DNA of 64,000 bases from Escherichia coli (lineage in GTDB: Bacteria > Pseudomonadota > Gammaproteobacteria > Enterobacterales > Enterobacteriaceae): the NCBI RefSeq assembly GCF_051903065.1, contig NZ_CP178438.1, one strand, 5' to 3'. Shown piece by piece: positions 2 through 57,952 of the stretch. Position 1 is the first letter of the stretch. Each line of letters begins with the position of its first letter. The notes under the pieces are model-generated. The model was not told the DNA's origin. It ran no database searches and was given only the letters and a program-made list of their open reading frames with translations. Position numbers and translations under genes: made by a program.

Positions 2-1450
2 GACTTAAACCCTAACGTCGCCAACCGCAACAAAGGCCCACGCCGTCAGCCGGAAAAGAATGTTTTCACCGATGAACAGATTGAGAAGCTGGAAGAAATC
101 TTCCATTCCTCCATGTTCAACTACCAGCGCCACTGGTGGGAAGCCGGAAAAACCAACCGCATCCGCAACCTGCTGAAGTCACGCCAGATCGGCGCAACCT
201 TCTATTTTGCCCGTGAAGCCCTGATTGACGCCCTGCTGACCGGACGTAACCAGATTTTCCTTTCCGCCAGCAAGGCACAGGCCCACGTCTTTAAGCAGTA
301 CATCATCGACTTCGCCAAAGAAGTGGAGGTGGAGCTGAAAGGTGATCCGATGGTGCTTCCTAACGGTGCCACGCTTTACTTCCTCGGCACCAATGCCCGC
401 ACTGCCCAGAGTTATCACGGCAACCTGTATCTGGATGAATATTTCTGGATACCGAAATTTCAGGAGCTGCGCAAAGTGGCTTCCGGTATGGCTATTCACA
501 AAAAATGGCGACAAACCTATTTTTCCACGCCATCCAGCCTGACACACAGTGCTTATCCGTTCTGGTCCGGTGCGCTGTTCAACCGTGGACGCAACAAAGC
601 CGACAAGGTGGACATCGACCTGTCCCACAGCAATCTGGCCCCCGGCCTGCTGTGCGCAGACGGGCAATACCGCCAGATAGTCACCGTGGAAGATGCGGTG
701 CGCGGCGGCTGTAACCTGTTCGACCTCGACCAGCTACGCATGGAGTACAGCCCGGACGAATACCAGAACCTGCTGATGTGCGAGTTCGTGGACGATCTCG
801 CGTCCGTGTTCCCGCTCAGCGAACTGCAGGCGTGCATGGTGGACAGTTGGGAAGTCTGGACCGACTTTCATGCACTGGCCCTGCGCCCGTTTGGCTGGCG
901 CGAGGTGTGGATCGGTTATGACCCGGCAAAAGGTACGCAGAACGGCGACAGCGCCGGATGCGTGGTGGTGGCACCGCCAGCCGTGCCAGGCGGTAAGTTT
1001 CGCATTCTTGAGCGTCACCAGTGGCGCGGGATGGACTTCCGCGCCCAGGCTGACGCCATCAAAAAACTGACCGAACAGTACAACGTGACCTATATCGGCA
1101 TCGACTCGACAGGTGTCGGTCACGGGGTTTACGAGAACGTGAAAGCGTTCTTTCCTGCCGTCCGGGAGTTTGTCTACAACCCCAACGTTAAAAACGCCCT
1201 GGTACTCAAAGCCTACGACATTATCAGTCACCGTCGTCTGGAGTTTGACGCCGGACACACCGACATAGCGCAGTCATTTATGGCAATCCGTCGCGCCACC
1301 ACCGCCAGTGGCAACCGCCCGACCTATGAAGCCAGCCGCAGCGAAGAAGCCAGCCACGCCGATCTGGCCTGGGCAACGATGCACGCACTGTTTAACGAAC
1401 CGCTGCAGGGCGAGTCCGCCAATACCAGCAATATTGTGGAGATTTTTTGA
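2..1450 (+). CDS. Phage terminase large (ATPase) subunit, P2 gpP-like; 5' end lies off the window (reading frame open to position 2)
   Basis: Translation shows a terminase-type ATPase N-region (KSRQIGATFYFAREA) and no in-frame stop upstream of 113; gene order P then Q as in P2-family phages. Confidence 0.8.
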   Translation, partial: DLNPNVANRNKGPRRQPEKNVFTDEQIEKLEEIFHSSMFNYQRHWWEAGKTNRIRNLLKSRQIGATFYFAREALIDALLTGRNQIFLSASKAQAHVFKQYIIDFAKEVEVELKGDPMVLPNGATLYFLGTNARTAQSYHGNLYLDEYFWIPKFQELRKVASGMAIHKKWRQTYFSTPSSLTHSAYPFWSGALFNRGRNKADKVDIDLSHSNLAPGLLCADGQYRQIVTVEDAVRGGCNLFDLDQLRMEYSPDEYQNLLMCEFVDDLASVFPLSELQACMVDSWEVWTDFHALALRPFGWREVWIGYDPAKGTQNGDSAGCVVVAPPAVPGGKFRILERHQWRGMDFRAQADAIKKLTEQYNVTYIGIDSTGVGHGVYENVKAFFPAVREFVYNPNVKNALVLKAYDIISHRRLEFDAGHTDIAQSFMAIRRATTASGNRPTYEASRSEEASHADLAWATMHALFNEPLQGESANTSNIVEIF

Positions 1451-2486: not shown

Positions 2487-2511
2487 AAAAGGCCGCTATG
2501 CGGCCTTTTTT
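2487..2511. terminator. Bidirectional hairpin terminator between portal gene and convergent cargo gene
   Basis: ggccgc-tat-gcggcc stem-loop flanked by A-run and T-run. Confidence 0.6.
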
Positions 2512-3202
2512 AATTTGCGTCATCATTTTTTTTATTTTCTAAAGACTCAATATACCCTCGCAAATTAAATTCTTTATTTTCTCTGAGTTTAGGTCCTTCT
2601 TTAGTATCTGAGCCTCGTTGCTCACGTAAACTTTTATTCAAAGCATCGATCAATTCTTGTCTAGAGATTTCCGTTGCAATTAACCCATCAAAATATCTCT
2701 TCATTTTTCTCGCGCTCTCGGTTACTTTAACAACTTCAAAACCAAGGCAGAGCAAATAAATTAGCGTTGTTATTGTAAATCCAGTATCTACAGAGATAAA
2801 ATAGCCAATATCGAGCACTTTCTTAAGTGATTCCAAGGGCATAACCATGCACAATAAAACCAAAAGCAAACCAGTGCCAAGATATAAATAAGTCATTGAG
2901 TTTCTTTCAATCAGCTTGAAGTACTCATCTCTCTGACCTTCAAAGCTAGCAACAATCTTAGGGGGTGTTTTTTTTGGAAGATCGAGGTCTCGAATTTTAT
3001 CCTGAAGATCTACGTATCTTTTAATAAGTAAACCGACTATGGCAGCAGTGATTAATGAAAGCGTTTTCGATAAAATATTGCCCATTTCCACGAGCACATT
3101 TAATTTATAATTAATCAGATATACTACACTCGATGCCAATACTCCACTTAAAATGGATAATATTATATAAAACGCATATCGCTCCACTCGATTTTTAATC
3201 AT
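2510..3202 (-). CDS. Hypothetical 4-TM membrane protein (candidate effector of a two-gene cargo cassette)
   Basis: 230-aa ORF with about four hydrophobic helices and a charged C-terminal tail; AT-rich; overlaps upstream gene by 4 bp. Confidence 0.6.
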   Translation of the reverse strand: MIKNRVERYAFYIILSILSGVLASSVVYLINYKLNVLVEMGNILSKTLSLITAAIVGLLIKRYVDLQDKIRDLDLPKKTPPKIVASFEGQRDEYFKLIERNSMTYLYLGTGLLLVLLCMVMPLESLKKVLDIGYFISVDTGFTITTLIYLLCLGFEVVKVTESARKMKRYFDGLIATEISRQELIDALNKSLREQRGSDTKEGPKLRENKEFNLRGYIESLENKKNDDAN

Positions 3203-4188
3203 GGATTTATTACCCCATCAGCTAACAATCTGAGCAACCACTCTACCATTTCCTCACAAACGCTATCAATAACAGGCATCCCATTATTATATTCAATATT
3301 GACGGTGTCTTTTATTTGTATTTCGTCATTTCTTAAAATACCTGCGCCTTTTAACTCTATGGTTAATGCTTCATCACGGTTATCGATAAGAGCCTCCGTA
3401 ATTTTCCTTAAAATATTTTGTTCCTCATCATTAGCTTTATATTTATACCCTATAGAAACATCTATCGTTAAATGTTCTCGAGACATGTCAACTGAAACAT
3501 CCTGTGATGCATTGTGTTTACGCAACACATCAACTCTGTGCTCACCGATAAGAGATTTCAATAATTCACTAGCGACATCATCTACTCCATCTCCATAAGA
3601 GGATAGAGGCAGCTTCAAGCTTACATTTTTTACATTGCTACGCATCAGCAATTCATTAGTCAAACGTAAATTTCCTGCTTGTAATATAATAAAGTTATCA
3701 ACATCAACCCTTAGATTATCCTTCAAAATGTAATTAATATAATTTTCAATATCTTTAATTCTAATTGCACGACTTTGCAATATTATTACATGATTTTTGA
3801 CAATCCCGATATATGCAACACTATCTAAATATTCTTTCGGAACACTTCCAGTAAGCTTTAATGCTTCATAAGCCAATCGATTTTTTTTATATTCTGAAAC
3901 ATCAAAAACTGGCACACTATTCCCTGGCTCAATATAAACTATTTCACCAAAAAATATACCATTCCGTTCGAAGGAATCAGATAAAACCATGTGCGCGTGG
4001 CTGCTAACACAAGGGTCACTATCTCCAGTTTCAAGATAGTAAATTCTGTCCTCAACGGTTGGAAACTTGTGATTAACAATTTCGTTCATACGATTCTGCA
4101 AATCACTTGCTAAAAGAGCATCCTTTTTAGGAAGCATTACTGCGTGTCGATAGTGTAACGCTTTAACTTTTGAGGGATTACTGGCCAT
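3199..4188 (-). CDS. Hypothetical soluble protein (candidate sensor partner of the 4-TM protein); alternative TTG start at 4230
   Basis: ORF 3199..4230 in track; the ATG at 4188 (MASNPSKV) has a GGA 7 nt upstream; AT-rich; no family recognised. Confidence 0.55.
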   Translation of the reverse strand: MASNPSKVKALHYRHAVMLPKKDALLASDLQNRMNEIVNHKFPTVEDRIYYLETGDSDPCVSSHAHMVLSDSFERNGIFFGEIVYIEPGNSVPVFDVSEYKKNRLAYEALKLTGSVPKEYLDSVAYIGIVKNHVIILQSRAIRIKDIENYINYILKDNLRVDVDNFIILQAGNLRLTNELLMRSNVKNVSLKLPLSSYGDGVDDVASELLKSLIGEHRVDVLRKHNASQDVSVDMSREHLTIDVSIGYKYKANDEEQNILRKITEALIDNRDEALTIELKGAGILRNDEIQIKDTVNIEYNNGMPVIDSVCEEMVEWLLRLLADGVINP

Positions 4189-4270
4189 GAAACATCCATT
4201 ATTAATCTTAGATTTAGTGATATGGAACAATCATACAATCTGTTAATTTTTCTTGCCACAACTCCTTTTC

Positions 4271-4300
4271 GCGCGCTCGTATCCCCGCCACGCCTGCCCG
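4271..4300 (-). other. Putative phage cos site (cohesive-end region)
   Basis: Reverse complement reads GGCGTGGCGGGGATACGAG, resembling the P2/186 cohesive-end sequence as recalled from memory. Confidence 0.35.
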
Positions 4301-4498
4301 CTTTATGTAGTGGTTTTCATGCAGGTGCATGATCTACGCAAAAGCCCGCCAGTTCTGGCGGGCCTTAGCAAAAACGATCCTCAAACGATCATGCGATCTC
4401 ATGCGGCATAGACATGCACTACAGAGCTAACGCCTCGCAAGGGCTCGTTGTTCAACCTTGCTGACGCCAGAAACAAGTTCAGACGCCAGCAACGTTTC

Positions 4499-4732
4499 TT
4501 AATGCAGCCAGCTGTCGTCTTCCCACACCTTCTGCATAATTTTCATCACTTGTTTTCTTTCTTCGTCCAGTTGCAGTCCGGTCAGTTCCACACCGTTAGA
4601 GCTACCTTTGCGGATACGAATTACCGTTTTGGGATACAGGGGGCGCAGATTGCGGTAAAGCTCGGATTCAAGGGCGTCCAGTGTAGACTGGCTAATCTTC
4701 TGCTCTTTATCGATCATTATTTCAATGCGCAT
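4499..4732 (-). CDS. DinI-like protein (possibly the C-terminal part of a frameshifted tum-like antirepressor gene)
   Basis: Translation MRIEIMIDKEQ...WEDDSWLH resembles the DinI family; the longer ORF 4499..4804 overlaps the upstream small ORF in another frame. Confidence 0.6.
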   Translation of the reverse strand: MRIEIMIDKEQKISQSTLDALESELYRNLRPLYPKTVIRIRKGSSNGVELTGLQLDEERKQVMKIMQKVWEDDSWLH

Positions 4733-4742
4733 AAAAGTCACC

Positions 4743-4931
4743 TCAGCTGATGACATCCATTGAGCGGTTGTATTCGTGGGTTCTGATTTTTGCCATGAGT
4801 TCATCTGTCAGTTCAGAAACCCACTGCAGAGCCAGCCCCTTCTCTTCATCACTACACTCACTAGCCGCTACAAGCTTAAGAAAAAAATCAATGCGCTGGA
4901 GCTTCAAAGACTCCAAAAAATAGTCCTGCAT
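4743..4931 (-). CDS. Small SOS-regulated ORF (possible N-terminal part of a tum-like gene)
   Basis: 62-aa ORF directly downstream of a LexA box; with the DinI-like ORF spans about 144 codons. Confidence 0.4.
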   Translation of the reverse strand: MQDYFLESLKLQRIDFFLKLVAASECSDEEKGLALQWVSELTDELMAKIRTHEYNRSMDVIS

Positions 4932-4972
4932 CTTTCCTCCTATGACACCAAAGCAATACTGTATATATAATC

Positions 4973-4992
4973 ACTGTTTATATTTACAGTAT
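4973..4992. promoter_or_regulatory. LexA (SOS) box upstream of the tum/DinI-like operon
   Basis: CTGT-N8-ACAG core (ctgtttatatttacag) at 4974..4989 in an AT-rich promoter region, preceded by a CTGT half-site. Confidence 0.6.
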
Positions 4993-5083
4993 ATAATAAT
5001 CTTACTGATGTAAAACGTTTTTTTACGTTCATCAGCCTGATATGCCTGGTATTATTAAGAGCACGAATTGTTAACCCGCGTAA

Positions 5084-7498
5084 TTAATACAGGTTTCGCC
5101 ACTTATCATCTTCCTGCAAACGCTGGTTCCGATAGAAGATACGCAGGCCTGCTCCTGACGGAATACTGCCACCGCGAAGGAGTAAATCGACCTCTTTCTC
5201 GCTGCCATCAAATCCTCTGGACTTCAGTTCATAGACGAGCTGCTGTCGCTGATGATCTGTAATTCGCTGTTTGTAGTCTTTACGCCGTTTCGGCTTAACC
5301 AGGCGTAACCTTGCTGCCAGTTCCCGGCGCTCTTTTTTGCTCATACTGTGCAGATAATCGTGCAACTCCTTGTCATCCATGCGGGTAATATCCGTTCTGG
5401 TGTCCCCATCAGCTGATTTATCTTTCTCCTGTTGGTTCAAATTTTCAGCAAGGGGACAGTTATTGCCACGAGTCCAAGGGGCGCAAGCGCCCTGGTCGGC
5501 TACCGCCTCCTGAACGTCAACGGCTTTACGAACCATTTTCCACTTCACTGCATGAGTGCAGATCTTGCCCTCTGCAATGGGTGACCAGATGCCATAAATA
5601 CGAATGCCGTGATCGCCATAGGCGGTCGGCTCTTCGTTAATTTCATAAGCAGTTCTGATGAGGTGATATTTGCGGGGAACCAGTACGCCACCCTGCTTCA
5701 TGATGTAAGTGGCAAAACAACCAGCATCAGCAGCAGCCAGGATGGCATCAAGGCGCGGGTTATCCAGTACCGGCGCACCTGCTTTTTTGTCGCCCTGTTG
5801 CCTTGCCGCCTGACCAGCCAGCAATCGCAGTTCACGGTAAGCCTGACGCCCCGGAATACCAAAGAAGCGGAATTGCTGAACACGATGCAGAGACGCCCAG
5901 GCATTAACGTATTCAGCGTTATCACGCAGGGATTTACCCGTTTCCTTGCTGATCTCGCCAGCCAGACCACGCCCGTCAATGTTCTTACTAATGTATTTCG
6001 CAATGTAGCTTGTCGGCGTTCCTTTGCGCGGGTTTATCAGCTCAGACTTAAAGCGTGGCCCCGTGTTATTGCCCAGCTCCTCGCGGTCTTCACGGATGGC
6101 AAACTTACGCAACAATGCAGTAATGGCGCGGCGGTCTTTTTTGCGCATGAAACACAACAGGTGCCAGTGAACTGTGCCGTCATGATGCGGCTCAGCCACC
6201 CGCACGCCATACCAGCGCAACCCGGCTTTGTGCATAGCCTTACGAAATGCAGCAAACATGCCGACCAGATAATCGCTGCTTTGTCTTACTGTCGCGTTGG
6301 TCCAGGTCGGGTTTGGCCTGCCGTTATTTAGCGTGGAATGGAAACGTGACGGACAGGTGATGGTGTAGAAAACGGCGCAGTCACCACGCATTTCCGCGAT
6401 AAGCTCCAGGCCTTTAACACAGGCCATCATCTCGTTGCGGCGATGCGCCGGGTTGCTGCTGCTGGCGTTTACCACATCCTCCATGTTCAGCGTGTCGCCG
6501 TCTTCGTTCACCAGTTCATGAGAACGGAAAAACTCCAGCGACTTACGGCGCTGCTCACGTTTATGCATCACGGCTTCATAGCTAACATAGGGAGATGCTT
6601 TTTTGCTGACCAGGCAGACAGCACGCAACTGCTCTTCCCGCAATTCGCAACGCATCTTCCATAATTTCCGATACCACCAGTCGGCGCACAGCATACGCGC
6701 CAGCGAACCCGGAATGAGTTCATAAGGCACAGGTTTGCGGCGGTTTCTTTTCCGGCGGAGTTGCTCAAACGCAGGCGGTATGACATCCAGTCGCAGGGTT
6801 TCTGCAGCCACCTTTTCCCATGTCTTGCGGATTTCTTCTGGCTTAACATCATCGGAGGCGTACAAATCACCACAAGCGGCATCAAGACACATGCTCATAT
6901 GCGCAGCGACAAGGGTAGACAGGCGTTTCACCTGATCCTGACTCATTTCAGGCAGGATCAGCAGACCGTCCAGCCCCTCATGGCTTGCCATAAAACGAAA
7001 AGATGCAGATAGCTGGCTGTCGCGTACATGCTCCAGTCGTTCCAGACATGGCTTAATCGTCTCACGCAAATAGCGGGAATAAGCCTTTGGCCTGCCCATG
7101 CTGCTGAAATATTCAATACGTTGCATCAGCGGCTTGCTGATATGGGAAGGCTGGGCGTTGACGTCAGCCAGAATGACCATGTCTGGATTAAAACGCTGCT
7201 GCTCATGCGCCATCTTTGCCCGGCTAATGAGCTTATCCTGCTCCATTTCGCGTTGGACAGGATCACGGGATTCATTAAAGAAATAATGCTCCCAGACCTG
7301 ATCACTCAGTGCCTCGCGGCGCAGTTGTTCCTGCTCGTTATCGGTAGCGTACAGAGTGATCAGGTTTGAAAGCGCAGAAACCGGCGCAACTTCCGCCGGG
7401 TCCAGATAAGGGTTAATGGCCTTTTTCGGGCTGTTCCATGAGAACGCTGCGGCAGCCTCGTTAAAGCCGCAGCAGTTGTTCATATCGGCATGACTCAT
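5084..7498 (-). CDS. Phage replication initiation protein (P2/186 gene A-like rolling-circle endonuclease)
   Basis: 804-aa ORF in the early-operon position of P2-like phages. Confidence 0.75.
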
Positions 7499-8352
7499 GC
7501 ACGTACTCCGTACACGGCAGAACTATCCACGCCACGCGAATAATCAAATCCCACCCAGCAGCGCGGCCCGGAAACAGCAATGATTTCTGTTGCTGATTTA
7601 CCCTCGCCAGCTGCCACACCGATGCTGCGTTTTACCTTGATATAGTGGTGAATAAAATTGCGATACAGCGAACGGATCAGGGATGTGTCACTGTTAGAAA
7701 CAATGACCGGATGTCCTTCTGATGACCGATGTTCAAGAACGGATGCCAGGTGATACTGATCATCTTCAGTGAAACCATCAGTGTGATAGCCGGAAAACGT
7801 ACCGTCATACGGCGGATCGCAATACACCACATCCCCCGCCTTCAACATCGCCAGCGTTTCATCAAAGCTGGCGCAGATAAACGTTGCTCGCTGGGCTTTT
7901 TCTGCAAATGCGCGAATTTCTTTTTCAGGGAAATACGGATTTTTATAATTACCGTAGGGAATGTTGAAATGCCCGCTCTTGTTATAGCGACATAAACCAC
8001 GGTAACCGTGACGATTGAGATACAGGAAATATACCGCTTTCATGAAATCAGTAATTTCAGTTGAGTAATTAAACTCCTGCCTTATGTTGTAATAAGCCAC
8101 CTCCCTGTTTGCGATCTCAAATAAAACTCTGGCGCGAGATATAAACGATTCACAATCAGCAGCAACCTTTTTATAGAGGTTGATTAAATCAGGATTAATA
8201 TCCGCAACAAGATAGCTGGGGTACTCCGTCTCCATCATCACTGCACAGGAACCCGCGAAAGGTTCAACCAGTCGCGGGCCAGCAGGAAGGTGTTTTTTCA
8301 GTTCGGACATAATTGCGGTTTTATTTCCCGCCCATTTCAGGATGGTGCTCAT
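7495..8352 (-). CDS. DNA adenine methyltransferase (Dam-like, phage-encoded orphan MTase); start may lie further upstream at 8412
   Basis: ILKWAGNK N-terminal motif and DPPY catalytic motif in translation. Confidence 0.8.
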
Positions 8353-8576
8353 ACAGCACCTCCGTTGTAATGTTTGCCTTTCAGCTCTGCGATTTCCTGA
8401 CAGGTAATGCAAAGCTGCACTCCAGGAATGGCGCGGCGGCGTGCTGGCGGAATTGGCACTTCACATTCAATGCAAAGCACGCGAGACACGCCCGGTGTTT
8501 TGGCACGGGCAGCACGGATATGGCGCTGGCGTTCTTCTTCAACGCGCTGCTGTACGAGATCCATTGCATCAGCCAT
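8349..8576 (-). CDS. TraR/DksA-family C4 zinc-finger protein
   Basis: 75-aa ORF with CxxC...CxxC spacing (CIECEVPI...CITCQE). Confidence 0.6.
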   Translation of the reverse strand: MADAMDLVQQRVEEERQRHIRAARAKTPGVSRVLCIECEVPIPPARRRAIPGVQLCITCQEIAELKGKHYNGGAV

Positions 8577-9218: not shown

Positions 9219-9412
9219 TTGTTCCCCCGTTTTTTCGTAGATAGTTCTGCCAGCAATTCATCTTGTGAACGGCACGGATGCCAGCGTTTACCATCCTCAC
9301 CCATGATCCAGCCGTGACCGTAGTGCATTGCCGGGCTTTGTTTAACCAGCAGCGATGCAAATGATGGTTCTTTCGTAAGCATAAGCACCTCACAGCAAAC
9401 CGAATGAAGCAC
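9182..9412 (-). CDS. Hypothetical prophage early protein
   Basis: 76-aa ORF downstream of the CII-like gene. Confidence 0.35.
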   Translation of the reverse strand: MLHSVCCEVLMLTKEPSFASLLVKQSPAMHYGHGWIMGEDGKRWHPCRSQDELLAELSTKKRGNKWLLKALRRLFH

Positions 9413-9899
9413 CGAGGCCAGTCACGGTATCAACTGCACTCGCCATCGCAGGGTTAGCCTGTAAACGGGCCTGCAGTGAAACAGCAGCCAGCGCCATCAG
9501 TCGTGTTACAGAGTTAATGCTGCTGATAGCATCACGACGACCTGCACTGGTTTTTACATCGCCAGATACCGCACCTGCAGCAACACGCCCGATCTCTGCG
9601 GTTGCACTCATGACGTAATGCGGCAGTTTCTCTTTTGCTACCTCATTAATCGGTACACATGGCAGGCAGTGAATCTGTGCCAGAAAACCATCTATCAGCG
9701 TTGAATCTTCAGTCAGATCGGTAAGCAGCCAGATTTCTGGCGCATTGAGCTGATGCGGTTGATCTGGGTTGAGTTTGTTTCGCAGAGTCTGGACATTCAT
9801 TCCTGCACGTTCTGCCAGCTTCGCCATATTGTGACGAAGTGCAAAAGCTCTACAGGCTTCATCAAAATGCGGGTGTTTGGAAATCTTATAATCAAACAT
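9390..9899 (-). CDS. cII: 186 CII-like transcriptional activator
   Basis: 169-aa translation closely resembles coliphage 186 CII as recalled (MFDYKISKHPHFDEACRAFA...GASFGLL). Confidence 0.7.
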   Translation of the reverse strand: MFDYKISKHPHFDEACRAFALRHNMAKLAERAGMNVQTLRNKLNPDQPHQLNAPEIWLLTDLTEDSTLIDGFLAQIHCLPCVPINEVAKEKLPHYVMSATAEIGRVAAGAVSGDVKTSAGRRDAISSINSVTRLMALAAVSLQARLQANPAMASAVDTVTGLGASFGLL

Positions 9900-9931: not shown

Positions 9932-10174
9932 TCACTTACCAACAATGACGCGGAAGTTGGAATGACCTAGGGATTCACGGACCTGATCGGTTTTGTACAT
10001 TAAATAACGCAGACTTACGCGGCCTTTGTTTTTTTCTTTCTTGACCATGTATTTAGCAAGCTGACCATGGTGAATTTTTTGATACACGGAGCCGCGGGAG
10101 ATACCTTCCCATTCCGCGAACTCTGCTGGCGTAGCCATCTCTTTTGGTACACGAATTGAAATATCAGTGCTCAT
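9932..10174 (-). CDS. Apl/Cox-like excisionase and lytic-switch HTH protein
   Basis: 80-aa HTH ORF first in the early operon, divergent from the repressor gene. Confidence 0.6.
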   Translation of the reverse strand: MSTDISIRVPKEMATPAEFAEWEGISRGSVYQKIHHGQLAKYMVKKEKNKGRVSLRYLMYKTDQVRESLGHSNFRVIVGK

Positions 10175-10293: not shown

Positions 10294-10926
10294 ATGATAC
10301 AGGTAAAGGCTGGAGAGAATACAGGGGGAAGAGAGGCTATCCATAGACTAATGGCAGCCTATGATTTCAAGTCCAGACAGCAACTTTGCGATCACTTAGG
10401 CGCATCAAAAAGCACCATGGCAAACAGATACTTAAGAGATAGTTTTCCTGCAGAGTGGGTGATTCAGTGCGCCTTGGAAACAGGAGTTTCTTTACTGTGG
10501 CTAACCACCGGACAGGGAGAGCCAGGTCCAAACATTGAACCTAAAAAAAATATCAATTCCGTGAACTCCAGCAAAGTTGTACCTCTTTCTGAACTAGTAT
10601 CTCCTGAAATTGACAAGGCGACTCTCAACGGTGGTTTATTGGTCGATGCTGGAAAAGCAATCATTGATAGCAGCATACTCCCCTCAGACTCAAGCAACCT
10701 ACTGCTGGTGACTACTTCTGGTGATTCTTATTTAATAGATCGCAACCAAACACCACCAGTAAATGGTATGTGGTTAGTCGATATCGACGGGATAAAAAGC
10801 ATTGTTAAATTGACTCGGCTCCCGGGAAACAAATTAGTAGTGCATCAGGATGATTCATCGTTTGAGTGCGGTCTGGATGACATTGAGGTAGTAGGCCGCG
10901 CACTGAAAATCATTAAGAGCCTTTGA
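10294..10926 (+). CDS. cI: Prophage CI-like immunity repressor
   Basis: 210-aa ORF with N-terminal HTH, located directly upstream of int as in 186. Confidence 0.6.
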   Translation: MIQVKAGENTGGREAIHRLMAAYDFKSRQQLCDHLGASKSTMANRYLRDSFPAEWVIQCALETGVSLLWLTTGQGEPGPNIEPKKNINSVNSSKVVPLSELVSPEIDKATLNGGLLVDAGKAIIDSSILPSDSSNLLLVTTSGDSYLIDRNQTPPVNGMWLVDIDGIKSIVKLTRLPGNKLVVHQDDSSFECGLDDIEVVGRALKIIKSL

Positions 10927-10927
10927 T

Positions 10928-11941
10928 ATGACCATCAGAAAACAGCCGAACGGAAAATGGTTGTGTGAGTGCTATCCCAATGGACGCAATGGCAAGCGCG
11001 TGCGTAAGCAATTTGCTACGAAAGGCGAAGCCATTGCGTTTGAAAGCTTCACAATGGAAGAAGTGAATAAAAAACCGTGGTTGGGTGAAAAGGATGATCG
11101 GCGACGCCTATCAGAATTAATTGAGCTTTGGTATTCCCTGTATGGTCAAACACTCGCAGACCCCAAGCGCCTCATGGCGAAACTTAGAATTATCTGTAAT
11201 GGTCTAGGCGATCCCATCGCCTCAGAACTGACAGCTGGTGACTTTACAAAATACCGCGAAGCACGGTTAAAAGGTGAAATACGAAATGAAGATGGCACGC
11301 TTATGTCGCCCGTTAAGCCCCGCACGGTAAACCTTGAACAGCGCAATCTATCATCTGTGTTCGGTACATTAAAAAAACTAGGACACTGGTCAGCACCAAA
11401 CCCGCTGGCAGGACTTCCGACCTTCAAAATTGCCGAAGGTGAGCTGGCTTTTCTTTCCACAGACGAAATCAAGCGCCTGTTGGCGGCATGTGCTGAATCT
11501 CAAAACCCTAGCTTACTAATGATTGCAAAAATATGCCTAGCTACTGGCGCACGGTGGAGTGAAGCCGAAAATCTGCAGGGCCACCAAATATCGAAATACC
11601 GAATTACTTATACAAAAACAAAAGGCAAGAAAAACAGAACAGTACCCATATCACAGGAGCTGTATGACGAACTCCCAAAGAACAGAGGGAAGTTATTCTC
11701 ACCATGTAGAAAAGCCTTTGAACGAGCAGTAAAACGGGCAGGTATAGATCTACCGGATGGCCAATGCACCCACGTGCTGCGACATACGTTTGCTAGTCAC
11801 TTTATGATGAATGGCGGGAACATACTTGTGCTAAGGGATATTTTGGGACATTCGGATATCAAGATGACCATGGTTTACTCACATTTCTCACCAGATCATC
11901 TTGAAGATGCCGTTACTAAGAACCCATTAAACTTGATATAA
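10928..11941 (+). CDS. int: Tyrosine integrase, P2 family
   Basis: 337 aa; C-terminal HxLRHT...Y catalytic region; resembles P2 Int. Confidence 0.9.
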   Translation: MTIRKQPNGKWLCECYPNGRNGKRVRKQFATKGEAIAFESFTMEEVNKKPWLGEKDDRRRLSELIELWYSLYGQTLADPKRLMAKLRIICNGLGDPIASELTAGDFTKYREARLKGEIRNEDGTLMSPVKPRTVNLEQRNLSSVFGTLKKLGHWSAPNPLAGLPTFKIAEGELAFLSTDEIKRLLAACAESQNPSLLMIAKICLATGARWSEAENLQGHQISKYRITYTKTKGKKNRTVPISQELYDELPKNRGKLFSPCRKAFERAVKRAGIDLPDGQCTHVLRHTFASHFMMNGGNILVLRDILGHSDIKMTMVYSHFSPDHLEDAVTKNPLNLI

Positions 11942-11954
11942 AACAGCCAAAATT

Positions 11955-13712
11955 CTATTTCATCAAGTAATCCAATTCATCCTTCATAGGTATAACTTGC
12001 TCATAAAGTCTATGGTAGGATTTTCCAATTGCGCCCCTAAATTGAATAAGTTTAGGGGAAAAGCTACCGATATTAATAATATGTTCTTGCGCTATACCAG
12101 GATATGGATCGATAAAAATAATCTCTGTCATACCTAACTGATAAGCTTTTTTAGCACAAAGTTCACAAGGGCTAGCTGTAGTATATAGTTTCCCTCCATT
12201 AATACCGACCCCACCATATTTGGCCAATTGCAAAAAAGCATTCTCCTCTGCGTGTAATGCACGGGTATGCACTTGATTCCCTTTCTTTTCATCATCAAGG
12301 CTGTTGTGAATATCTTTAAAACAATATGGCAAATTAAGTCCTTTAAAAACAGTAGAACTTGAATCACTCGCCCTTATTTTTATTAAATTTTCTTTAACTT
12401 TACTCCTAAATTTTGTATTACTTCGTTCGTACAGGCTATATGTTCCCTCATCAAAATCATGCAATAACCCATCAAATGACCTCATAGAACAAGGAACTTG
12501 ACCTTTTGCTACATCGTTCCAACCAACTGACTTGATAGAGTTATCATTATCTGTCACAACCGCCCCTACTTGCCTAGATATACATCCAGAATTTAGTTTT
12601 ACAGTATATGCAACTTGCATAACCCTTTCCATGGCGGTAGGAGATATTAATCCAGGGTGTTGCATTAATGATACATACCACGCAATTTGTGCTTTGAGAA
12701 AATTATTATTATCAAATTCTTTTTTAGGGTTAAAAAAATGTATATCTGAAATTTCAATGCATTTTTTTACATTAGGATTAGTAAGATGATTATACTCGCC
12801 ATCTCCTTTACCAGATTCTTCATCATTAATTTTCTTTATCTGTTCCTCTGAGAACTTATGTAATTTCTTTAAATATCTGGTTCGATGTTCATCTGGTGCA
12901 TTTATAGAAACCAGATGGAATGCAGCATATCTATCTTTGAAGAATTTAGCTTCATACGGGTTACGTATCGCATCAATGACTATATACGCTTTATTATTCT
13001 TTACTTTTCTAATTATTTTAATAACACGATTAATTGTTTCAGGTAAATGAAAAACAGCCTTTGGAATAAAGTCTTGATTTTCATAATCTACATCAACCTT
13101 CCCTATTCTTCTAATTGACTTTCCTGCTGACTGATATAGCTCAATATATAAACCTGGCTCTAGTTCATTTAATTCCCTTTTAAAATCCCGTGTAAATTTT
13201 CGAGTAAGAGTTAATATCCTAATAAAGGTATCTTTCCCCCTGCCTTTAAAGTCAATCTCATCATCATGATTAAGAAGATTTTTTATCACCTCAAGATATT
13301 TTATCTTCAACAAACTTTTAGCGAACACACCATTAACAACCAGTTTCTTGGCTACCTTAAAGGAAATCGAATTTTCTTTTTTATCGGGGATTTTACTTGC
13401 AGAAAACTGAATGAATTTAGCTAAGGCCGATGGAGATAAAAGGAGCAAATATATTGAAATGAGATCACTGACCTTTATCGAATAGAAGTTCTTCCAATGA
13501 GTCTCTGCAAAATTTTTTACTATTTCATAACGCCGCAAATCCAATCCTTTATAATACTCAGCCAAGACGTTACTATCTGGAAAAGATATTTCTTTTTGTT
13601 CTAAAATATTTGCTGCAGTAGTACATCCTGAGCCAGTTCTCCCAGTTAAACCAATAAGAATAAATTGACTATTTTCTAAAAAAAGCTCACTAATAAATTT
13701 GTGTTCTCTCAT
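11955..13712 (-). CDS. P-loop nucleotide-kinase / cytidine-deaminase fusion protein (candidate antiphage dCTP-deaminase-type cargo gene)
   Basis: N-terminal GLTGRTGSGCTT Walker-A-like motif; C-terminal HAEENA...PCELC zinc-deaminase motif; AT-rich; lies between int and attR. Confidence 0.65.
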   Translation of the reverse strand: MREHKFISELFLENSQFILIGLTGRTGSGCTTAANILEQKEISFPDSNVLAEYYKGLDLRRYEIVKNFAETHWKNFYSIKVSDLISIYLLLLSPSALAKFIQFSASKIPDKKENSISFKVAKKLVVNGVFAKSLLKIKYLEVIKNLLNHDDEIDFKGRGKDTFIRILTLTRKFTRDFKRELNELEPGLYIELYQSAGKSIRRIGKVDVDYENQDFIPKAVFHLPETINRVIKIIRKVKNNKAYIVIDAIRNPYEAKFFKDRYAAFHLVSINAPDEHRTRYLKKLHKFSEEQIKKINDEESGKGDGEYNHLTNPNVKKCIEISDIHFFNPKKEFDNNNFLKAQIAWYVSLMQHPGLISPTAMERVMQVAYTVKLNSGCISRQVGAVVTDNDNSIKSVGWNDVAKGQVPCSMRSFDGLLHDFDEGTYSLYERSNTKFRSKVKENLIKIRASDSSSTVFKGLNLPYCFKDIHNSLDDEKKGNQVHTRALHAEENAFLQLAKYGGVGINGGKLYTTASPCELCAKKAYQLGMTEIIFIDPYPGIAQEHIINIGSFSPKLIQFRGAIGKSYHRLYEQVIPMKDELDYLMK

Positions 13713-14139: not shown

Positions 14140-17100
14140 TCAGAACGACCAGTTCACACCAGCCACCGCGTTCCACGGGGATTCCACATCGGCACCGTTG
14201 CTATACCCCACCCCGAGATGCCCGCTTAACGTACTGCTGAATGAGGCTTTAATACCTGCCTGGTATATTTCACGTCTGCCCGACAAATCATTGACGAAAT
14301 TACCGTCATTATTCACCTTCACCCGGTTATCATCGACAAATTCTTTGCGCACAGCCGCCTTCAGCCACGGCTCAACTTCCATACCGTTCCCCAGACGCAT
14401 GTTGTAACTCAGCGTTGCACCCAGTTCACGATATATACTGCGGGTATCGACTGATTTCGATTCCATGCCATTGGATAAATGATATTCAGGGTTATCAGCG
14501 GTGAACCCCGTTAACGATGCATACGGCGTCAGGTTCCAGTTACCATCGGTAAATCGCATCCCGGTTTCAATGTGACCGCCCAGCCCGTTGCTGCGATAAC
14601 TGCCGTTGGCGGCTCCACCGCTGCTCATTTTACCGGCTACGTTACTTTCAAAACGGTTCAGCTTCACGACACCGTCCAGATAAAAACCACTTTCATGTTC
14701 CCAACTGGCATAGCCGCCCAGAGAATAACTGCCCACACTGCCATGTCCTCCGCGATCAAAACCGATATGTGAATGGGAATAGCCCATAAAAGCGCCCAGC
14801 GTGGCAATCCCTTCAGGAATATCATTACGACTGTCGATTCCCACTGTCATTCCGGTCAGCGTCTGCTCAAACCCGGCACCCGCATCGGTGGTGACATTAT
14901 TACGGGTGTTATACGTCGCCCCCCAGACATTATTGTTGTGTGGACTCGCTTTCATTATGTTCAACCGCTCGCGAATACTGTTTAGCTCAGCATCAAATAC
15001 CAACGGTAATGTTGCAGCCATATTGAGTACGGCTGCCGTAGAAGGCGTGATGCGTTTCTCCGGAACGGGTGTCGGCGTTGGATCGGGAGTCGGGTCTGGT
15101 TTCGGATCCGGTTTTGGGTCTGGTTTTGGATCTGGCTTCGGATTTGGGTTGGGATTTGGGTTGGGATCCGGGTTGGGTTTGACATCATTGGTCAGGTTCC
15201 AGTTGCTGTTGCCATCGCTTTTCAGGACATACTCATAGGTCCCAAGATCAACGAAACCGCCAGTATTGCCCAGCGAAAACGAAGCATCCCCTCCCCCTGT
15301 TTTCACCAGCGTCATCGCGTCGTCAGACTGAGGGCTGACGCCGGTATCCTGAACAAAGATTTTAAAATTACCAGTGGCGTTGTTGTTGACGACCAGTTGA
15401 TCGCCCCGGGAGCCAGCAACGTTGGTATGCAGGTAGAAATTACCGCTACCGGAAAGTTCATTGGTTGTCAGCGTATTGTAGATACCGTTAGTTGTGGCAG
15501 GCGCTGCTGTTTGTGCTGATAAATAAACATCACCGTCGTTGAGTAGCAAACTGTTTACTCTATATTCGCAGTTGCTGGTACCTGCACAGGAATTATTGCT
15601 GTTAAGCCAGACACTGCCCCGGCTGGCAGCCGTCAGGTCGGCAAGCGTGGTATCGACGCCATTTCCCAGAGTTAATGTCGCGCTATCGGTAATCCGAACC
15701 GCCCCTTCAAGTTTTACTGGCGTAACATTATCCCGTGGCGTGATTAACGACAGGCTTCCTGTCGCGCCACTGACCGATGCATCCGCCAGCGTACCTGCGT
15801 AGATGATTGCCGTCCCGCCAGCGACCTGGAGATCTTCTGCCCGGGCCAGAGGCTGAAACTCATCTTTTGACCGCCCAAGGGTATATTGCCCGCCAGAGTT
15901 AACCTTTGTAGCGGAGTCCTGACCCAGGTTTTGCATTGCACCACCCTTGCCAACCGTGGAGTCATGGGCTTCGGTACCTGCTAATACCAATAAATTACCA
16001 CCATTTTCCAGCAACATATTGGTCGCTAAATTTCCGGCAATGGAAAAGGTGCCGTACTGGTGAGTACCGCTGATTTCAATACCGTTAGCCGTGCTCGTCT
16101 GGAGAGCGGCACCGCTGTTCTGGACGATATCTGTCGCTTTGCCATTATCGTTGACTGTCAGCGTTCCGCCTTCATTGATCGTTGTTTTTATTGCTTCTCC
16201 GTTAGCTGAAACTGTTTGTATTCCGCCGTCGTTAATTGTTGTCTCATTCGCCACACCCTCGACGATTTGTTCACCGCCGGTGAGCGTCGTGCCTGTCGCA
16301 GTGGCTTTTGTTTTGACGATCTCCCGTCCGCCCGTATTGACCTGTGTTTTGTCAGAAGAGGTGTCTGACTCTACGGTTAACACGCCGCCATTTGCCAGCA
16401 GGATATTGTTCGCCGCACCCTGCTCGATGCTGAACGCGACGCCATCCGCGCGTGTTCCTGTGACCCGCGTCGCCCTGGTGGTTGCAACCAAAGCGCCCTG
16501 CCTACTCTGCTGTATCCCCGTTGCGCTGCCTTTCTCCCACACATCGAGTGTGCCGCCGTCATTAAGCACCGAGTTTTCAGCCAGACCGCCCTCATTAACT
16601 ACCTGTGAACCCCCATTAATAATGGAACCTTCCGCTGTCCCGTTTGCCATAATTTGTTGTAGGCCAGAGACGATATCGGTATTGATTGCCTTACCATAAT
16701 TCTGAACGGTTTGCGTGCCACCATTGATGTGTGTTTTCTCTGTTGACCCACCATCAACAATTTGTTCACCACTTTCGATATTTGCCTCAGTGGCTAATCC
16801 ATATACCGTTTGCTTGCCACCTTTGATATTTGCTTTATCAGAAGTGGCACTGGCATATATTGTTTGGGTGCCAGCACTATTGAGTACAGTGCCAACATCT
16901 TTTCCATAAACATCCATTTTGCCGTTGGCATTAATAATCGTATCAACTGCCCGGGAACCAGTGACGACTGTTAATGAGCCAGCGTTTTCCAGCACTACAT
17001 TTTTAGCTTCTGAATTCCTGATGTAGAAAGCATCACCATAACTGTTGGTTCCTTCGATAAGTGTTCCGGAGGTCGTGGAAGCAATTAATGCGCCGCCGGA

Positions 17101-17470
17101 TTGTTGCTCAACATGCTTAGCCTCACCACCGTCCTGAACCTCCAGAACGCCGCCATTATTAAGTCTGGTGCTATCTGTTTTAGCCTCCTTCTGGACAATC
17201 AGCTTACCGCCAGCATCAATGGTAGTATTTTTCGCCGAGGTTTTAGCCACTACCGTCAGTTCGCCGGTATTTTCCAGCACAACATAATTAGCCTCCCCTC
17301 CGGTAATAGTGAAGTGAGAGAGCTTGTTGTATCCTTCGATATCAGTCCCTGCACCCGTGTTGGCAACTAAAGCACTGCCCGTCTCCTGGTTAACCCCATG
17401 TGCAATACCGCCGGTATAGACAATCAGCGAGCCTCCGGCGCTAATATTGCTGCCAATTGCCGTACCATCT
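14140..17470 (-). pseudogene. ypjA: Autotransporter adhesin (YpjA-like), 5'-truncated by IS903
   Basis: Repetitive passenger domain, PNPDP/KPDP linker, C-terminal beta-barrel ending in WSF; ORF lacks signal peptide and runs into the IS903 end. Confidence 0.7.
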
Positions 17471-51847: not shown

Positions 51848-51924
51848 TGGTGCATCCGGGAGGATTCGAACCTCCGACCGCTCGGTTCGTAGCCGAGTAC
51901 TCTATCCAGCTGAGCTACGGATGC
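51848..51924 (-). tRNA. argQ: tRNA-Arg (anticodon ACG)
   Basis: Reverse complement is GCATCCGTAGCTCAGCTGGATAGAGTACTCGGCTACGAACCGAG...CACCA. Confidence 0.9.
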
Positions 51925-52122
51925 ATCGGGAAAATTTATTTTACTGCTGATATTGATATCGCTACTAAAGCCATATCAAGTAAGAGATGGTGCATCCGGG
52001 AGGATTACTCGCCTTGCGGCTCGCCCTTCGGGCCGTTGCTGGCGCAACGTTATCCTCCCTGGTGCCTGCGGTTAATTCCGCTACCTCTTCGATACCTTCA
52101 TTGCTGAAGATTTCGGAGAATA

Positions 52123-52199
52123 TGGTGCATCCGGGAGGATTCGAACCTCCGACCGCTCGGTTCGTAGCCGAGTACTCTATCCAGCTGAGCTACGGATGC
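52123..52199 (-). tRNA. argZ: tRNA-Arg (anticodon ACG)
   Basis: Identical tRNA-Arg sequence. Confidence 0.9.
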
Positions 52200-52261
52200 A
52201 TCGGGAAATTTATTTTACTGCTGATATTGATACCGCTACTAAAGCTGTATCAAGTAAGAGA

Positions 52262-52338
52262 TGGTGCATCCGGGAGGATTCGAACCTCCGACCGCTCGGT
52301 TCGTAGCCGAGTACTCTATCCAGCTGAGCTACGGATGC
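52262..52338 (-). tRNA. argY: tRNA-Arg (anticodon ACG)
   Basis: Identical tRNA-Arg sequence. Confidence 0.9.
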
Positions 52339-52402
52339 ATCGGGAAACTTACTTTACTGCAGATTTTTTGATACCGCTACTAAAGCCGTATCAAGTAAGA
52401 GA

Positions 52403-52479
52403 TGGTGCATCCGGGAGGATTCGAACCTCCGACCGCTCGGTTCGTAGCCGAGTACTCTATCCAGCTGAGCTACGGATGC
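52403..52479 (-). tRNA. argV: tRNA-Arg (anticodon ACG)
   Basis: Identical tRNA-Arg sequence. Confidence 0.9.
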
Positions 52480-52482
52480 AAA

Positions 52483-52575
52483 TGGCGGTGAGGCGGGGAT
52501 TCGAACCCCGGATGCAGCTTTTGACCGCATACTCCCTTAGCAGGGGAGCGCCTTCAGCCTCTCGGCCACCTCACC
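52483..52575 (-). tRNA. serV: tRNA-Ser (anticodon GCU)
   Basis: Reverse complement is GGTGAGGTGGCCGAGAGGCTGAAGGCGCTCCCCTGCTAAGGGAG...CGCCA with long variable arm. Confidence 0.9.
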
Positions 52576-56068: not shown

Positions 56069-56569
56069 TCAGTCGGCAAAATTTCGCCAAATATCCTGGA
56101 TATCTTCCATCAGATAGCCACGATAGAGCAGAAAACGCTGGATCTTAACTTTTTCTGAAAAGACAGTTGGCAAAGGTTCACCATATTTTCGCGTCGCCTG
56201 ATCGCGCGCCAGTGCGCACCAGTCGATGTCACATTCACGCATCGCTTTTTCTGTCGCTTCGCGGGAAATACCTTTCTGATTCAGTTCCTGGCGAATACGC
56301 GCAGGTCCATAACCTTTGCGGCTACGGCTGGCGATAAAGCGCGCAACAAATCGGCTGTCATCGAGATAGCCATGTTCATGGCACCAGGTAATAACGCGCT
56401 CGTAATCTTCTGCCGTAGCATCAATCTCTTCTGGGCCATTTTTGCCCATAATCGGTGCCGCGAGTTTACGTCGCAGTTCTTGCTCACTGTGATCGCGCAC
56501 CGCCAGAATGCGTACCGCACGATCCAACAGGCGAGCATATGCCGGGCGACGGGACGTTGATTCTGTCAT
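56069..56569 (-). CDS. recX: RecA regulator RecX
   Basis: 166 aa. Confidence 0.95.

Positions 56570-56811: not shown

Positions 56812-57952
<1,141 letters not shown>

What the first reader, a model, noticed from the sequence alone, without database searches (positions are those of the whole stretch)
4499..4992. LexA-boxed tum-like module that appears split by a frameshift
A full CTGT-N8-ACAG LexA box lies about 45 bp upstream of a 62-aa ORF that overlaps, in a different frame, a DinI-like ORF. The two together span about 144 codons, close to the size I recall for the 186 Tum antirepressor, whose C-terminal part is DinI-like. This suggests either a frameshifted tum (loss of SOS inducibility, as in non-inducible P2-like prophages) or a recoding site.
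Basis: partly seen in the sequence, partly recalled or inferred. Interest (0 to 1): 0.45.

Follow-up and report, generated by a model that had tools for sequence, protein, structure and literature searches.

The report
Ordinary two-gene tumA/tumB SOS operon
This is the normal, intact SOS-controlled induction switch of a Fels-2/186-like prophage, made of a small antirepressor gene followed by a separate DinI-like gene; it is not a broken or recoded gene, and the arrangement is already described and very common in E. coli.

Summary
The LexA box (4974-4989), the 62-aa ORF (4743-4931, minus strand) and the DinI-like ORF are all real. The reported overlap in another frame is an artefact of taking the longest ORF. 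The DinI-like gene starts at ATG 4732, 10 nt after the orf62 stop codon, behind its own Shine-Dalgarno sequence.

orf62 is 98.4% identical to Fels-2 STM2728. It sits where phage PSP3 has tumA, and it is a remote homologue of the N-terminal half of 186 Tum (profile-profile probability 96.5%, E 7e-10, co-linear). The DinI-like gene is 41% identical to Tum residues 71-145.

In eight relatives both proteins keep exactly 62 and 77 aa. The stop codon, spacer length (10-13 nt) and relative frame (0, 1 or 2) vary, and dN/dS is about 0.08 for both genes. That excludes both a frameshift pseudogene and a recoding site.

The split tum of Fels-2 and PSP3 is in the literature (Lemire 2011, citing Bunny 2002). 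The module occurs in 1082 of 5426 complete E. coli genomes.

Two small extras emerged. The operator is a colicin-style double overlapping SOS box. TumA is much more conserved than its presumed target, the CI repressor.

Verdict: already known, low interest.

The parts
5004..5036 (-). Hairpin between the end of replication gene A (stop at 5084) and the SOS promoter. Its 3' arm contains the putative -35.
   Evidence: RNA fold -12.6 kcal/mol, z -4.1. Lemire 2011 describes comparable palindromes before the LexA box in the Gifsy prophages.
4986..5014 (-). Putative p95-like promoter: -35 TTTACA (5009-5014), 17-nt spacer, -10 TACTGT (4986-4991). An alternative -10 is TATACT (4988-4993) with a 15-nt spacer.
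   Evidence: Read from the sequence and placed by analogy with the annotated 186 p95, whose -10 is the first hexamer of the LexA site. The consensus scan did not call it. This is an inference.
4974..4989 (.). LexA box 1, CTGT-N8-ACAG. The 20-mer TACTGTAAATATAAACAGTG (4972-4991) matches the consensus TACTGTATATATATACAGTA at 17 of 20 positions.
   Evidence: TACTGTA...ACAGT is invariant in window, Fels-2, PSP3, 186 and YenM_06.16-2 and in eight Fels-2-type relatives.
4959..4974 (.). LexA box 2, GTGATTATATATACAG on the minus strand. It shares one base with box 1. The right half-site is perfect and the left half is degenerate.
   Evidence: The ATACAG half-site is invariant in eight relatives. The layout matches the double SOS box upstream of a colicin-like bacteriocin gene, with 92% identity over 39 nt.
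4743..4931 (-). tumA-like gene (orf62, 62 aa), the presumed antirepressor of the prophage CI. Its Shine-Dalgarno AGGAGG lies at 4936-4941.
   Evidence: phrog_698 matched over its full length, E 3.6e-38. 98.4% identical to Fels-2 STM2728. hhalign against the 186 Tum N-half family gives probability 96.5%, E 7e-10. dN/dS about 0.08. AlphaFold2 predicts a two-helix hairpin with pLDDT 88.
4733..4742 (-). Intercistronic spacer GGTGACTTTT. Together with the GA of the stop codon it forms the Shine-Dalgarno GAGGTGA for the second cistron.
   Evidence: Spacer length is 10-13 nt and the stop is TGA, TAA or TAG in relatives.
4499..4732 (-). tumB / DinI-like gene (77 aa).
   Evidence: 41% identical to 186 Tum residues 71-145, E 3e-24. 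phrog_189 positions 71-148 of 151. NF007893 DinI scores 42.7 bits, below its equivalog cut-off of 111. PDB 1GHH. Its start aligns with the annotated internal GTG start of truncated Tum in 186.
4454..4496 (-). Strong hairpin immediately after the DinI-like stop codon, with no U-run. It occupies the position of 186 t95a.
   Evidence: -23.5 kcal/mol, z -3.1. 186 annotation.
4340..4366 (-). Terminator-like GC-rich hairpin followed by UUUU; the likely end of the SOS operon.
   Evidence: -23.4 kcal/mol, z -4.4. It has 4 U and so falls below the scan threshold of 5.
10294..10926 (+). Prophage CI repressor (210 aa), the presumed target of TumA.
   Evidence: Pfam PF07022 plus PF16452 (186-type CI helix-turn-helix and C-terminal domains) and no S24 peptidase domain. 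58% identical to Fels-2 CI and 34% to 186 CI.

Best explanation
The region is the intact SOS operon of a Fels-2/186-like (Peduoviridae) prophage, in its two-cistron tumA-tumB form.

Proposed mechanism:
1. In uninduced cells LexA occupies a double, overlapping operator (4959-4989) that covers the -10/+1 region of a p95-like promoter just downstream of replication gene A.
2. DNA damage activates RecA, LexA cleaves itself, and the operon is transcribed.
3. The first cistron gives a 62-aa two-helix protein homologous to the N-terminal half of 186 Tum. It binds the 186-type CI repressor, which has no autocleavage domain, and stops it binding its operators. The early lytic operon (apl, cII, ... A) then fires.
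4. The second cistron, translated from its own Shine-Dalgarno and ATG, gives a 77-aa DinI-like protein that modulates RecA filaments and the SOS response.

Shown here: gene structure, homology, conservation, operator sequence and the type of repressor. Inferred from 186, PSP3 and Fels-2: LexA binding, the TumA-CI interaction and the role of DinI.
For: Context: int, cI, apl, cII, methyltransferase, A, then this module, then cargo genes and portal/terminase, in the same order as 186.

Operator: the LexA box is invariant across five distant phages and lies at the same place relative to the start codon. The only other full box in the window is that of recA.

First cistron: orf62 is 98.4% identical to Fels-2 STM2728. 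PSP3 annotates the equivalent pair as tumA ('similar to 5' end 186 tum; UV induction of prophage') and tumB. Profile-profile homology between orf62 and the Tum N-half gives probability 96.5%, E 7e-10, aligning residues 1-44 to 1-44. Full-length 186 Tum aligns through orf62, stop codon and DinI of phage MLG42, residues 1-145, E 6e-19.

Second cistron: the DinI-like gene is 41% identical to Tum 71-145.

Two-cistron structure: eight relatives keep 62 and 77 aa with variable stop codon, spacer and frame. dN/dS is 0.05-0.12 for both genes.

Target: CI is of the 186 type, with no peptidase domain.

Literature: Fels-2 and PSP3 have tum split in two, and in PSP3 the upstream gene carries the antirepressor activity (PMC3121763).
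Against: No experiment on this element or on Fels-2 STM2728 itself was found in the held literature. The PSP3 result is a personal communication cited second-hand, and Bunny 2002 could not be read.

BLASTP of orf62 against 186 Tum finds nothing, so the homology rests on profiles and on one tblastn read-through.

Identical orf62 proteins sit beside CI repressors only 40-58% identical. This is unexpected for a specific binder.

The promoter hexamers are weak and were not called by the consensus scan.
Confidence: 0.88

Rival explanations
1. A once-fused 186-type tum gene was inactivated by a frameshift, so the prophage has lost SOS inducibility.
For: Relative to 186, the two halves are in different frames here (offset 1). 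The combined span of 144 codons is close to the 146 aa of Tum.
Against: The same two-gene structure, with exact lengths of 62 and 77 aa, is kept in at least five genera of Peduoviridae at dS of about 1 with dN/dS of about 0.08. It is present in 1082 of 5426 complete E. coli genomes. Each cistron has its own Shine-Dalgarno and ATG. According to Bunny 2002 as cited, Fels-2, which carries a 98%-identical module, makes a lexA null mutation lethal, so it does respond to loss of LexA. 186 itself also makes the DinI-like half separately, from an internal GTG at the equivalent position.
Confidence: 0.02
2. A programmed ribosomal frameshift or stop-codon read-through fuses orf62 to the DinI-like ORF, giving a Tum-sized protein.
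For: The maximal DinI-frame ORF overlaps the end of orf62 by 62 nt in this window. In MLG42 and PSP3 the two cistrons are in frame, separated only by a stop codon.
Against: The frame offset between the cistrons is 1, 1, 1, 2, 1, 2 and 0 in seven relatives, and the spacer is 10-13 nt. No single recoding event could be conserved across these. No X XXY YYZ slippery heptamer is present near GAT GTC ATC AGC TGA. The overlap region evolves as orf62 coding sequence, and its translation in the DinI frame is not conserved. A Shine-Dalgarno and ATG precede the DinI-like ORF in every relative.
Confidence: 0.02
3. orf62 is an unrelated small gene that merely shares the LexA-controlled operon with dinI. 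On this view the antirepressor is encoded elsewhere, or the prophage is not SOS-inducible.
For: orf62 has no Pfam, NCBIfam or PDB match and databases call it 'hypothetical protein'. It gives no BLASTP hit to Tum. It does not co-vary with CI.
Against: The profile homology is co-linear from residue 1. tblastn reads through the pair. A Yersinia phage protein annotated 'tum protein' bridges the two families by eye. The position is identical to PSP3 tumA. The homologue in ESSI2_ev040 keeps the same position after gene A even without a dinI partner.
Confidence: 0.07

Closest known systems
Fels-2 STM2728 + STM2726.1 (Salmonella Typhimurium LT2 prophage)
   Same: The same two genes at the same place. 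orf62 is 98.4% identical in protein. The DinI-like protein is identical, with only synonymous differences (dS 0.09). The spacer is the same, and so is the double LexA operator.
   Different: CI is only 58% identical. The downstream cargo genes differ. The host is E. coli rather than Salmonella.
PSP3 TumA / TumB
   Same: A two-cistron split tum after gene A under one LexA box. tumA is annotated as needed for UV induction and tumB is DinI-like.
   Different: PSP3 TumA (60 aa) is highly diverged from orf62, similar only at motif level by eye. In PSP3 the cistrons are in frame and 3 nt apart. PSP3 has a single LexA box.
Coliphage 186 Tum (146 aa) and the p95 SOS operon
   Same: The position, the LexA-overlapped promoter and the 186-type CI target are shared. 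The N-half is homologous to orf62 and the C-half is 41% identical to the DinI-like gene. 186 also makes the DinI-like part alone, from an internal GTG.
   Different: 186 fuses both halves in one polypeptide, has a single LexA box, and carries orf97 downstream in place of the cargo seen here.
Gifsy-1/2/3 LexA-controlled dinI-antirepressor operons (GfoA, GftA, GfhA)
   Same: The logic is the same: LexA represses a small antirepressor gene co-transcribed with a dinI homologue, and the repressor is not cleaved.
   Different: The gene order is reversed, with dinI first. The phages are lambdoid, and the antirepressor and repressor families are unrelated.
Colicin-type double overlapping SOS boxes
   Same: The operator ATACTGTAAATATAAACAGTGATTATATATACAGTATT has the same layout as ATACTGTATATAAAACCAGTGGTTATATGTACAGTATT upstream of a colicin-like tRNase bacteriocin gene. 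Such operators bind two LexA dimers and repress very tightly (PMC2994835).
   Different: Here the operator controls a prophage antirepressor rather than a bacteriocin. LexA occupancy of box 2 has not been tested.

Membership tests
186-type SOS (tum) module of P2/186-like phages, split tumA/tumB form | Located directly downstream of replication gene A, on the same strand, in a 186-like early region | tested here: met
   Gene order, identical to 186, PSP3 and Fels-2.
186-type SOS (tum) module of P2/186-like phages, split tumA/tumB form | LexA operator overlapping the promoter of the operon | tested here: met
   Met at sequence level only. The box at 4974-4989 is invariant across distant relatives. 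LexA binding itself was not testable.
186-type SOS (tum) module of P2/186-like phages, split tumA/tumB form | First coding part homologous to the N-terminal (antirepressor) half of Tum | tested here: met
   hhalign probability 96.5%, E 7e-10, co-linear. tblastn read-through. Plain BLASTP is negative.
186-type SOS (tum) module of P2/186-like phages, split tumA/tumB form | Second coding part DinI-like | tested here: met
186-type SOS (tum) module of P2/186-like phages, split tumA/tumB form | Cognate immunity repressor of the 186 CI type, without a RecA-stimulated autocleavage domain | tested here: met
   PF07022 plus PF16452 only.
186-type SOS (tum) module of P2/186-like phages, split tumA/tumB form | The product binds CI, prevents operator binding and induces the prophage | not testable with these tools
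   Known for 186 Tum and reported for PSP3 TumA. No experiment was found for this protein.
Fused Tum (single 146-aa polypeptide as in 186) | One uninterrupted ORF spanning the antirepressor and DinI-like halves | tested here: not met
   A stop codon at 4743-4745, a 10-nt spacer and a frame offset of 1 separate the two halves.
Programmed recoding site (frameshift or read-through) | Conserved frame relationship and a conserved slippery or stimulatory signal at the junction | tested here: not met
   Frame offsets of 0, 1 and 2 and spacers of 10-13 nt occur among relatives. No slippery heptamer is present.
DinI (NCBIfam NF007893 equivalog, chromosomal DNA damage-inducible protein I) | Score above the curated equivalog cut-off | tested here: not met
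   42.7 bits against a cut-off of 111. It is a DinI-family homologue (phrog_189, PDB 1GHH) but not the chromosomal equivalog.
Colicin-type double SOS operator | Two 16-bp LexA boxes overlapping by one base, bound by two LexA dimers | tested here: inconclusive
   The layout and sequence match. The left half of box 2 is degenerate (GTGA), as it is in the colicin operator (GTGG). Occupancy was not testable.

The most novel reading that the evidence does not exclude
The Fels-2-type TumA may be a broad-specificity antirepressor that recognises a conserved surface of many divergent 186-type CI repressors. One SOS-induced prophage could then cross-induce co-resident P2-like prophages. Its colicin-style double LexA operator would make it fire late and in an all-or-none manner. 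This would explain why TumA is 98-100% conserved beside CIs that are only 40-58% identical.
Probability: 0.3. Interest if true: 0.4.

Novelty: already known. Interest (0 to 1): 0.1.

Why it matters
It matters little for discovery. The locus is the standard induction switch of a very common prophage family, and its split structure is already described.

The practical value is for annotation:
- The 62-aa 'hypothetical protein' (WP_001154434-type) found next to DinI-like genes in about 20% of complete E. coli genomes can be labelled a TumA-like antirepressor.
- Longest-ORF calls for the DinI-like gene should be trimmed to the 77-aa form.
- The locus should not be scored as a pseudogene or as evidence of a non-inducible prophage.

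Tried and rejected
1. BLASTP of orf62 against full 186 Tum found no alignment. Profiles were needed.
2. Pfam, NCBIfam and PDB sequence searches of orf62 found nothing.
3. Foldseek of the AlphaFold2 model against the PDB returned only generic helical hairpins, none at E <= 0.001. This was uninformative.
4. An Rfam scan of 4100-5200 found nothing near gathering scores.
5. The consensus promoter scan did not call the minus-strand SOS promoter. It did call a strong plus-strand site, ATGACA-18-TATAAT at 4942-4971. Its -35 is not conserved in SEN8, ST13, ST437 or MLG42, so I treat it as a by-product of the AT-rich palindromic operator.
6. Bunny et al. 2002 could not be read, by DOI or by PMC id.
7. 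A paper search for 'tumA/tumB' returned only noise.
8. The single-sequence search of 1.84 billion representatives found 66 clusters. Almost all are stand-alone proteins of 55-75 aa and none is a fused Tum-length protein.
9. The frameshift-pseudogene and recoding readings were considered and rejected on comparative evidence.

Full report
**What is there.** The finding lies on the minus strand of a 186/Fels-2-like (Peduoviridae) prophage. The gene order is integrase (10928-11941, +), a 210-aa CI (10294-10926, +), apl/cox (9932-10174, -), cII (9390-9899, -), a DNA methyltransferase (7495-8412, -) and replication protein A (5084-7498, -). The module in question follows, then two cargo genes, then portal and terminase. 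This is the layout of coliphage 186, where the LexA-controlled p95-tum-orf97 operon follows gene A.

**Check of the observation.**
- The LexA box is real. CTGTTTATATTTACAG lies at 4974-4989. It is one of only two CTGT-N8-ACAG matches in 64 kb, with 0.57 expected.
- The other match, at 57935-57950, sits just upstream of an ORF that is plainly RecA. The motif therefore picks out genuine SOS boxes in this window.
- The 62-aa ORF (4743-4931, -) begins 43 nt from the box, behind an AGGAGG Shine-Dalgarno.
- The DinI-like ORF is real (phrog_189 E 1.5e-29; 41% identity to Tum 71-145; PDB DinI 1GHH).
- The overlap in another frame is not real. It comes from the longest-ORF start at 4804.
- The actual junction on the minus strand reads ...ATC AGC TGA GGTGACTTTT ATG CGC... 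The stop codon is part of a GAGGTGA Shine-Dalgarno, and the ATG at 4732 follows 10 nt after the stop.
- Depositors and PGAP annotate 189 nt plus 234 nt as two genes in every relative examined.

**Is it Tum-like?** Yes.
- orf62 matches phrog_698 over its full length (E 3.6e-38). That family consists of stand-alone proteins of about 62 aa.
- orf62 is 98.4% identical to Fels-2 STM2728.
- PSP3 annotates the equivalent pair as tumA ('similar to 5' end 186 tum; UV induction of prophage') and tumB.
- BLASTP of orf62 against 186 Tum finds nothing.
- A profile built from 28 diverse orf62 relatives was compared with a profile of 28 relatives of the 186 Tum N-half. The comparison gives probability 96.5%, E 7e-10, aligning residues 1-44 to 1-44.
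- Independently, tblastn of full-length 186 Tum reads straight through orf62, its stop codon and the DinI-like gene of Yersinia phage MLG42, where the two cistrons happen to be in frame. It aligns residues 1-145 at E 6e-19.
- AlphaFold2 predicts orf62 as a two-helix hairpin with pLDDT 88.

**Is it a frameshift lesion or a recoding site?** No. I aligned the module from the window and seven phages of several genera.
- In the window and six of the seven phages both products keep exactly 62 and 77 aa. The exception is phage 500465-1, whose record carries apparent indels in both genes.
- The stop codon is TGA, TAA or TAG.
- The spacer is 10, 11, 12 or 13 nt and always contains a purine-rich Shine-Dalgarno.
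- The frame offset between the cistrons is 1, 2 or 0.
- The upstream extension in the DinI frame is not conserved in either length or sequence.
- Both genes show dN/dS of 0.05-0.12 at dS of 0.7-1.8.
- A homologue of orf62 in ESSI2_ev040 occupies the same position with no DinI gene after it.
- The module (4499-4992) is present at 80% coverage or more in 1082 of 5426 complete E. coli genomes.

None of this fits a pseudogene or a programmed frameshift.

**Literature.** Lemire et al. 2011 (PMC3121763) state that Tum looks like an antirepressor fused to DinI. [quoted passage not shown] The title of Bunny 2002 reports that a lexA null mutation is lethal because of Fels-2. I could not read that paper. 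186 itself is annotated with an internal GTG start that gives a truncated, DinI-like Tum. That start aligns exactly with the ATG of the window's DinI-like gene.

**Mechanism.** The anatomy is shown here; the biochemistry is inferred.
1. LexA represses a p95-like promoter. I place its -35 at TTTACA (5009-5014) and its -10 at TACTGT (4986-4991), by analogy with 186.
2. SOS induction removes LexA.
3. TumA (orf62) binds the prophage CI and prevents operator binding, which releases the early lytic operon. This CI has the 186-type helix-turn-helix and C-terminal domains and no peptidase domain.
4. The DinI-like product modulates RecA and the SOS response.
5. Hairpins at 4454-4496 and at 4340-4366 (the latter followed by UUUU) probably end the operon.

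**Two details beyond the finding.**

First, the operator is double. Box 1 (4974-4989) shares one base with a second box (4959-4974) whose ATACAG half-site is invariant in all eight relatives. 186, PSP3 and a Yersinia phage have only one box. The 38-nt operator has the same layout as the double SOS box upstream of a colicin-like bacteriocin gene on a ColRNAI plasmid, with 92% identity over 39 nt. Such operators bind two LexA dimers and give very tight repression (PMC2994835).

Second, TumA does not co-vary with CI. The table gives protein identity to the window's orf62 and CI.

| Phage | orf62 identity | CI identity |
|---|---|---|
| Kp4845-2 | 100% | 95.7% |
| Fels-2 | 98.4% | 58% |
| Cartapus | 100% | 52% |
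| 4LV2017 | 100% | 40% |
| SEN8 | 88.7% | 90.5% |

Either TumA targets a conserved CI surface, which would allow cross-induction among P2-like prophages, or the module is exchanged by recombination without regard to CI. I did not resolve this.

**Verdict.** The tum-like reading is correct. The frameshift, loss-of-function and recoding readings are wrong. The element is an already-described, very common two-gene SOS operon, and interest is low.

Noticed in passing
window 4959-4989: The tum operator is a colicin-style double overlapping SOS box. It is conserved in eight Fels-2-type relatives and absent from 186, PSP3 and YenM_06.16-2. It is 92% identical over 39 nt to the operator of a colicin-like tRNase bacteriocin on ColRNAI plasmids. 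I did not find this discussed in the held literature.
   Followed up: partly
window 4743-4931 versus 10294-10926; loci L006-L011: The TumA-like protein is 98-100% identical in phages whose CI repressors are only 40-58% identical, while SEN8 has 90% CI identity but 89% TumA identity. Antirepressor and repressor do not co-vary. 4LV2017 CI also carries a duplicated N-terminal helix-turn-helix domain.
   Followed up: partly
window 2510-4230 (minus strand): Two cargo genes lie between the SOS operon and the portal gene, at the position of 186 orf97 and P2 old/tin. One is a 329-343 aa protein (phrog_3482, unknown function) and the other a 230-aa protein with no PHROG, NCBIfam or PADLOC match. The pair is rare, covered in only 2 of 5426 complete E. 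coli genomes. It may be an uncharacterised defence or moron cassette.
   Followed up: partly
window 11955-13712 (minus strand): A 585-aa anti-phage dCTP deaminase (NCBIfam NF041025, 420 bits against a cut-off of 400; PADLOC dCTPase E 2e-146) lies immediately beyond the prophage integrase. A 1046-aa autotransporter adhesin follows at 14140-17280.
   Followed up: no
window 57935-57950 and 56812-57888: The only other full CTGT-N8-ACAG motif in the window is the SOS box of the host recA gene, which serves as an internal positive control. recX lies at 56069-56569, and a tRNA-Arg x4 plus tRNA-Ser cluster at 51848-52575.
   Followed up: yes
window 4942-4971 (plus strand): A near-consensus sigma-70-like site (ATGACA-18-TATAAT, 11 of 12) lies antisense within the operator and leader, pointing towards gene A. 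Its -35 is not conserved in more distant relatives, so it is probably a by-product of the AT-rich palindromes.
   Followed up: partly
L012 (Escherichia phage 500465-1, NC_049342.1 4033-5118): This public phage record has several single-base indels in both the tumA-like and DinI-like genes relative to all relatives. The result is odd annotated ORFs (291 and 318 nt) and a split 'endonuclease'. These look like sequencing or assembly errors.
   Followed up: no
window 113-1450 (plus strand): The terminase large-subunit ORF is listed as only 445 aa, starting at 113, and it matches the C-terminal parts of terminase profiles. Either the gene runs off the window's left edge in another frame or start, or it is truncated. 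Prophage completeness cannot be judged from this window.
   Followed up: no
40 proteins (relatives of the 186 Tum N-half): Among close relatives (68-96% identity) of the 186 Tum N-terminal half, most database proteins are short (63-92 aa) with varied C-terminal ends. Split or truncated forms therefore seem frequent within the 186-type lineage too, and the fused 146-aa form is not the only state there.
   Followed up: no
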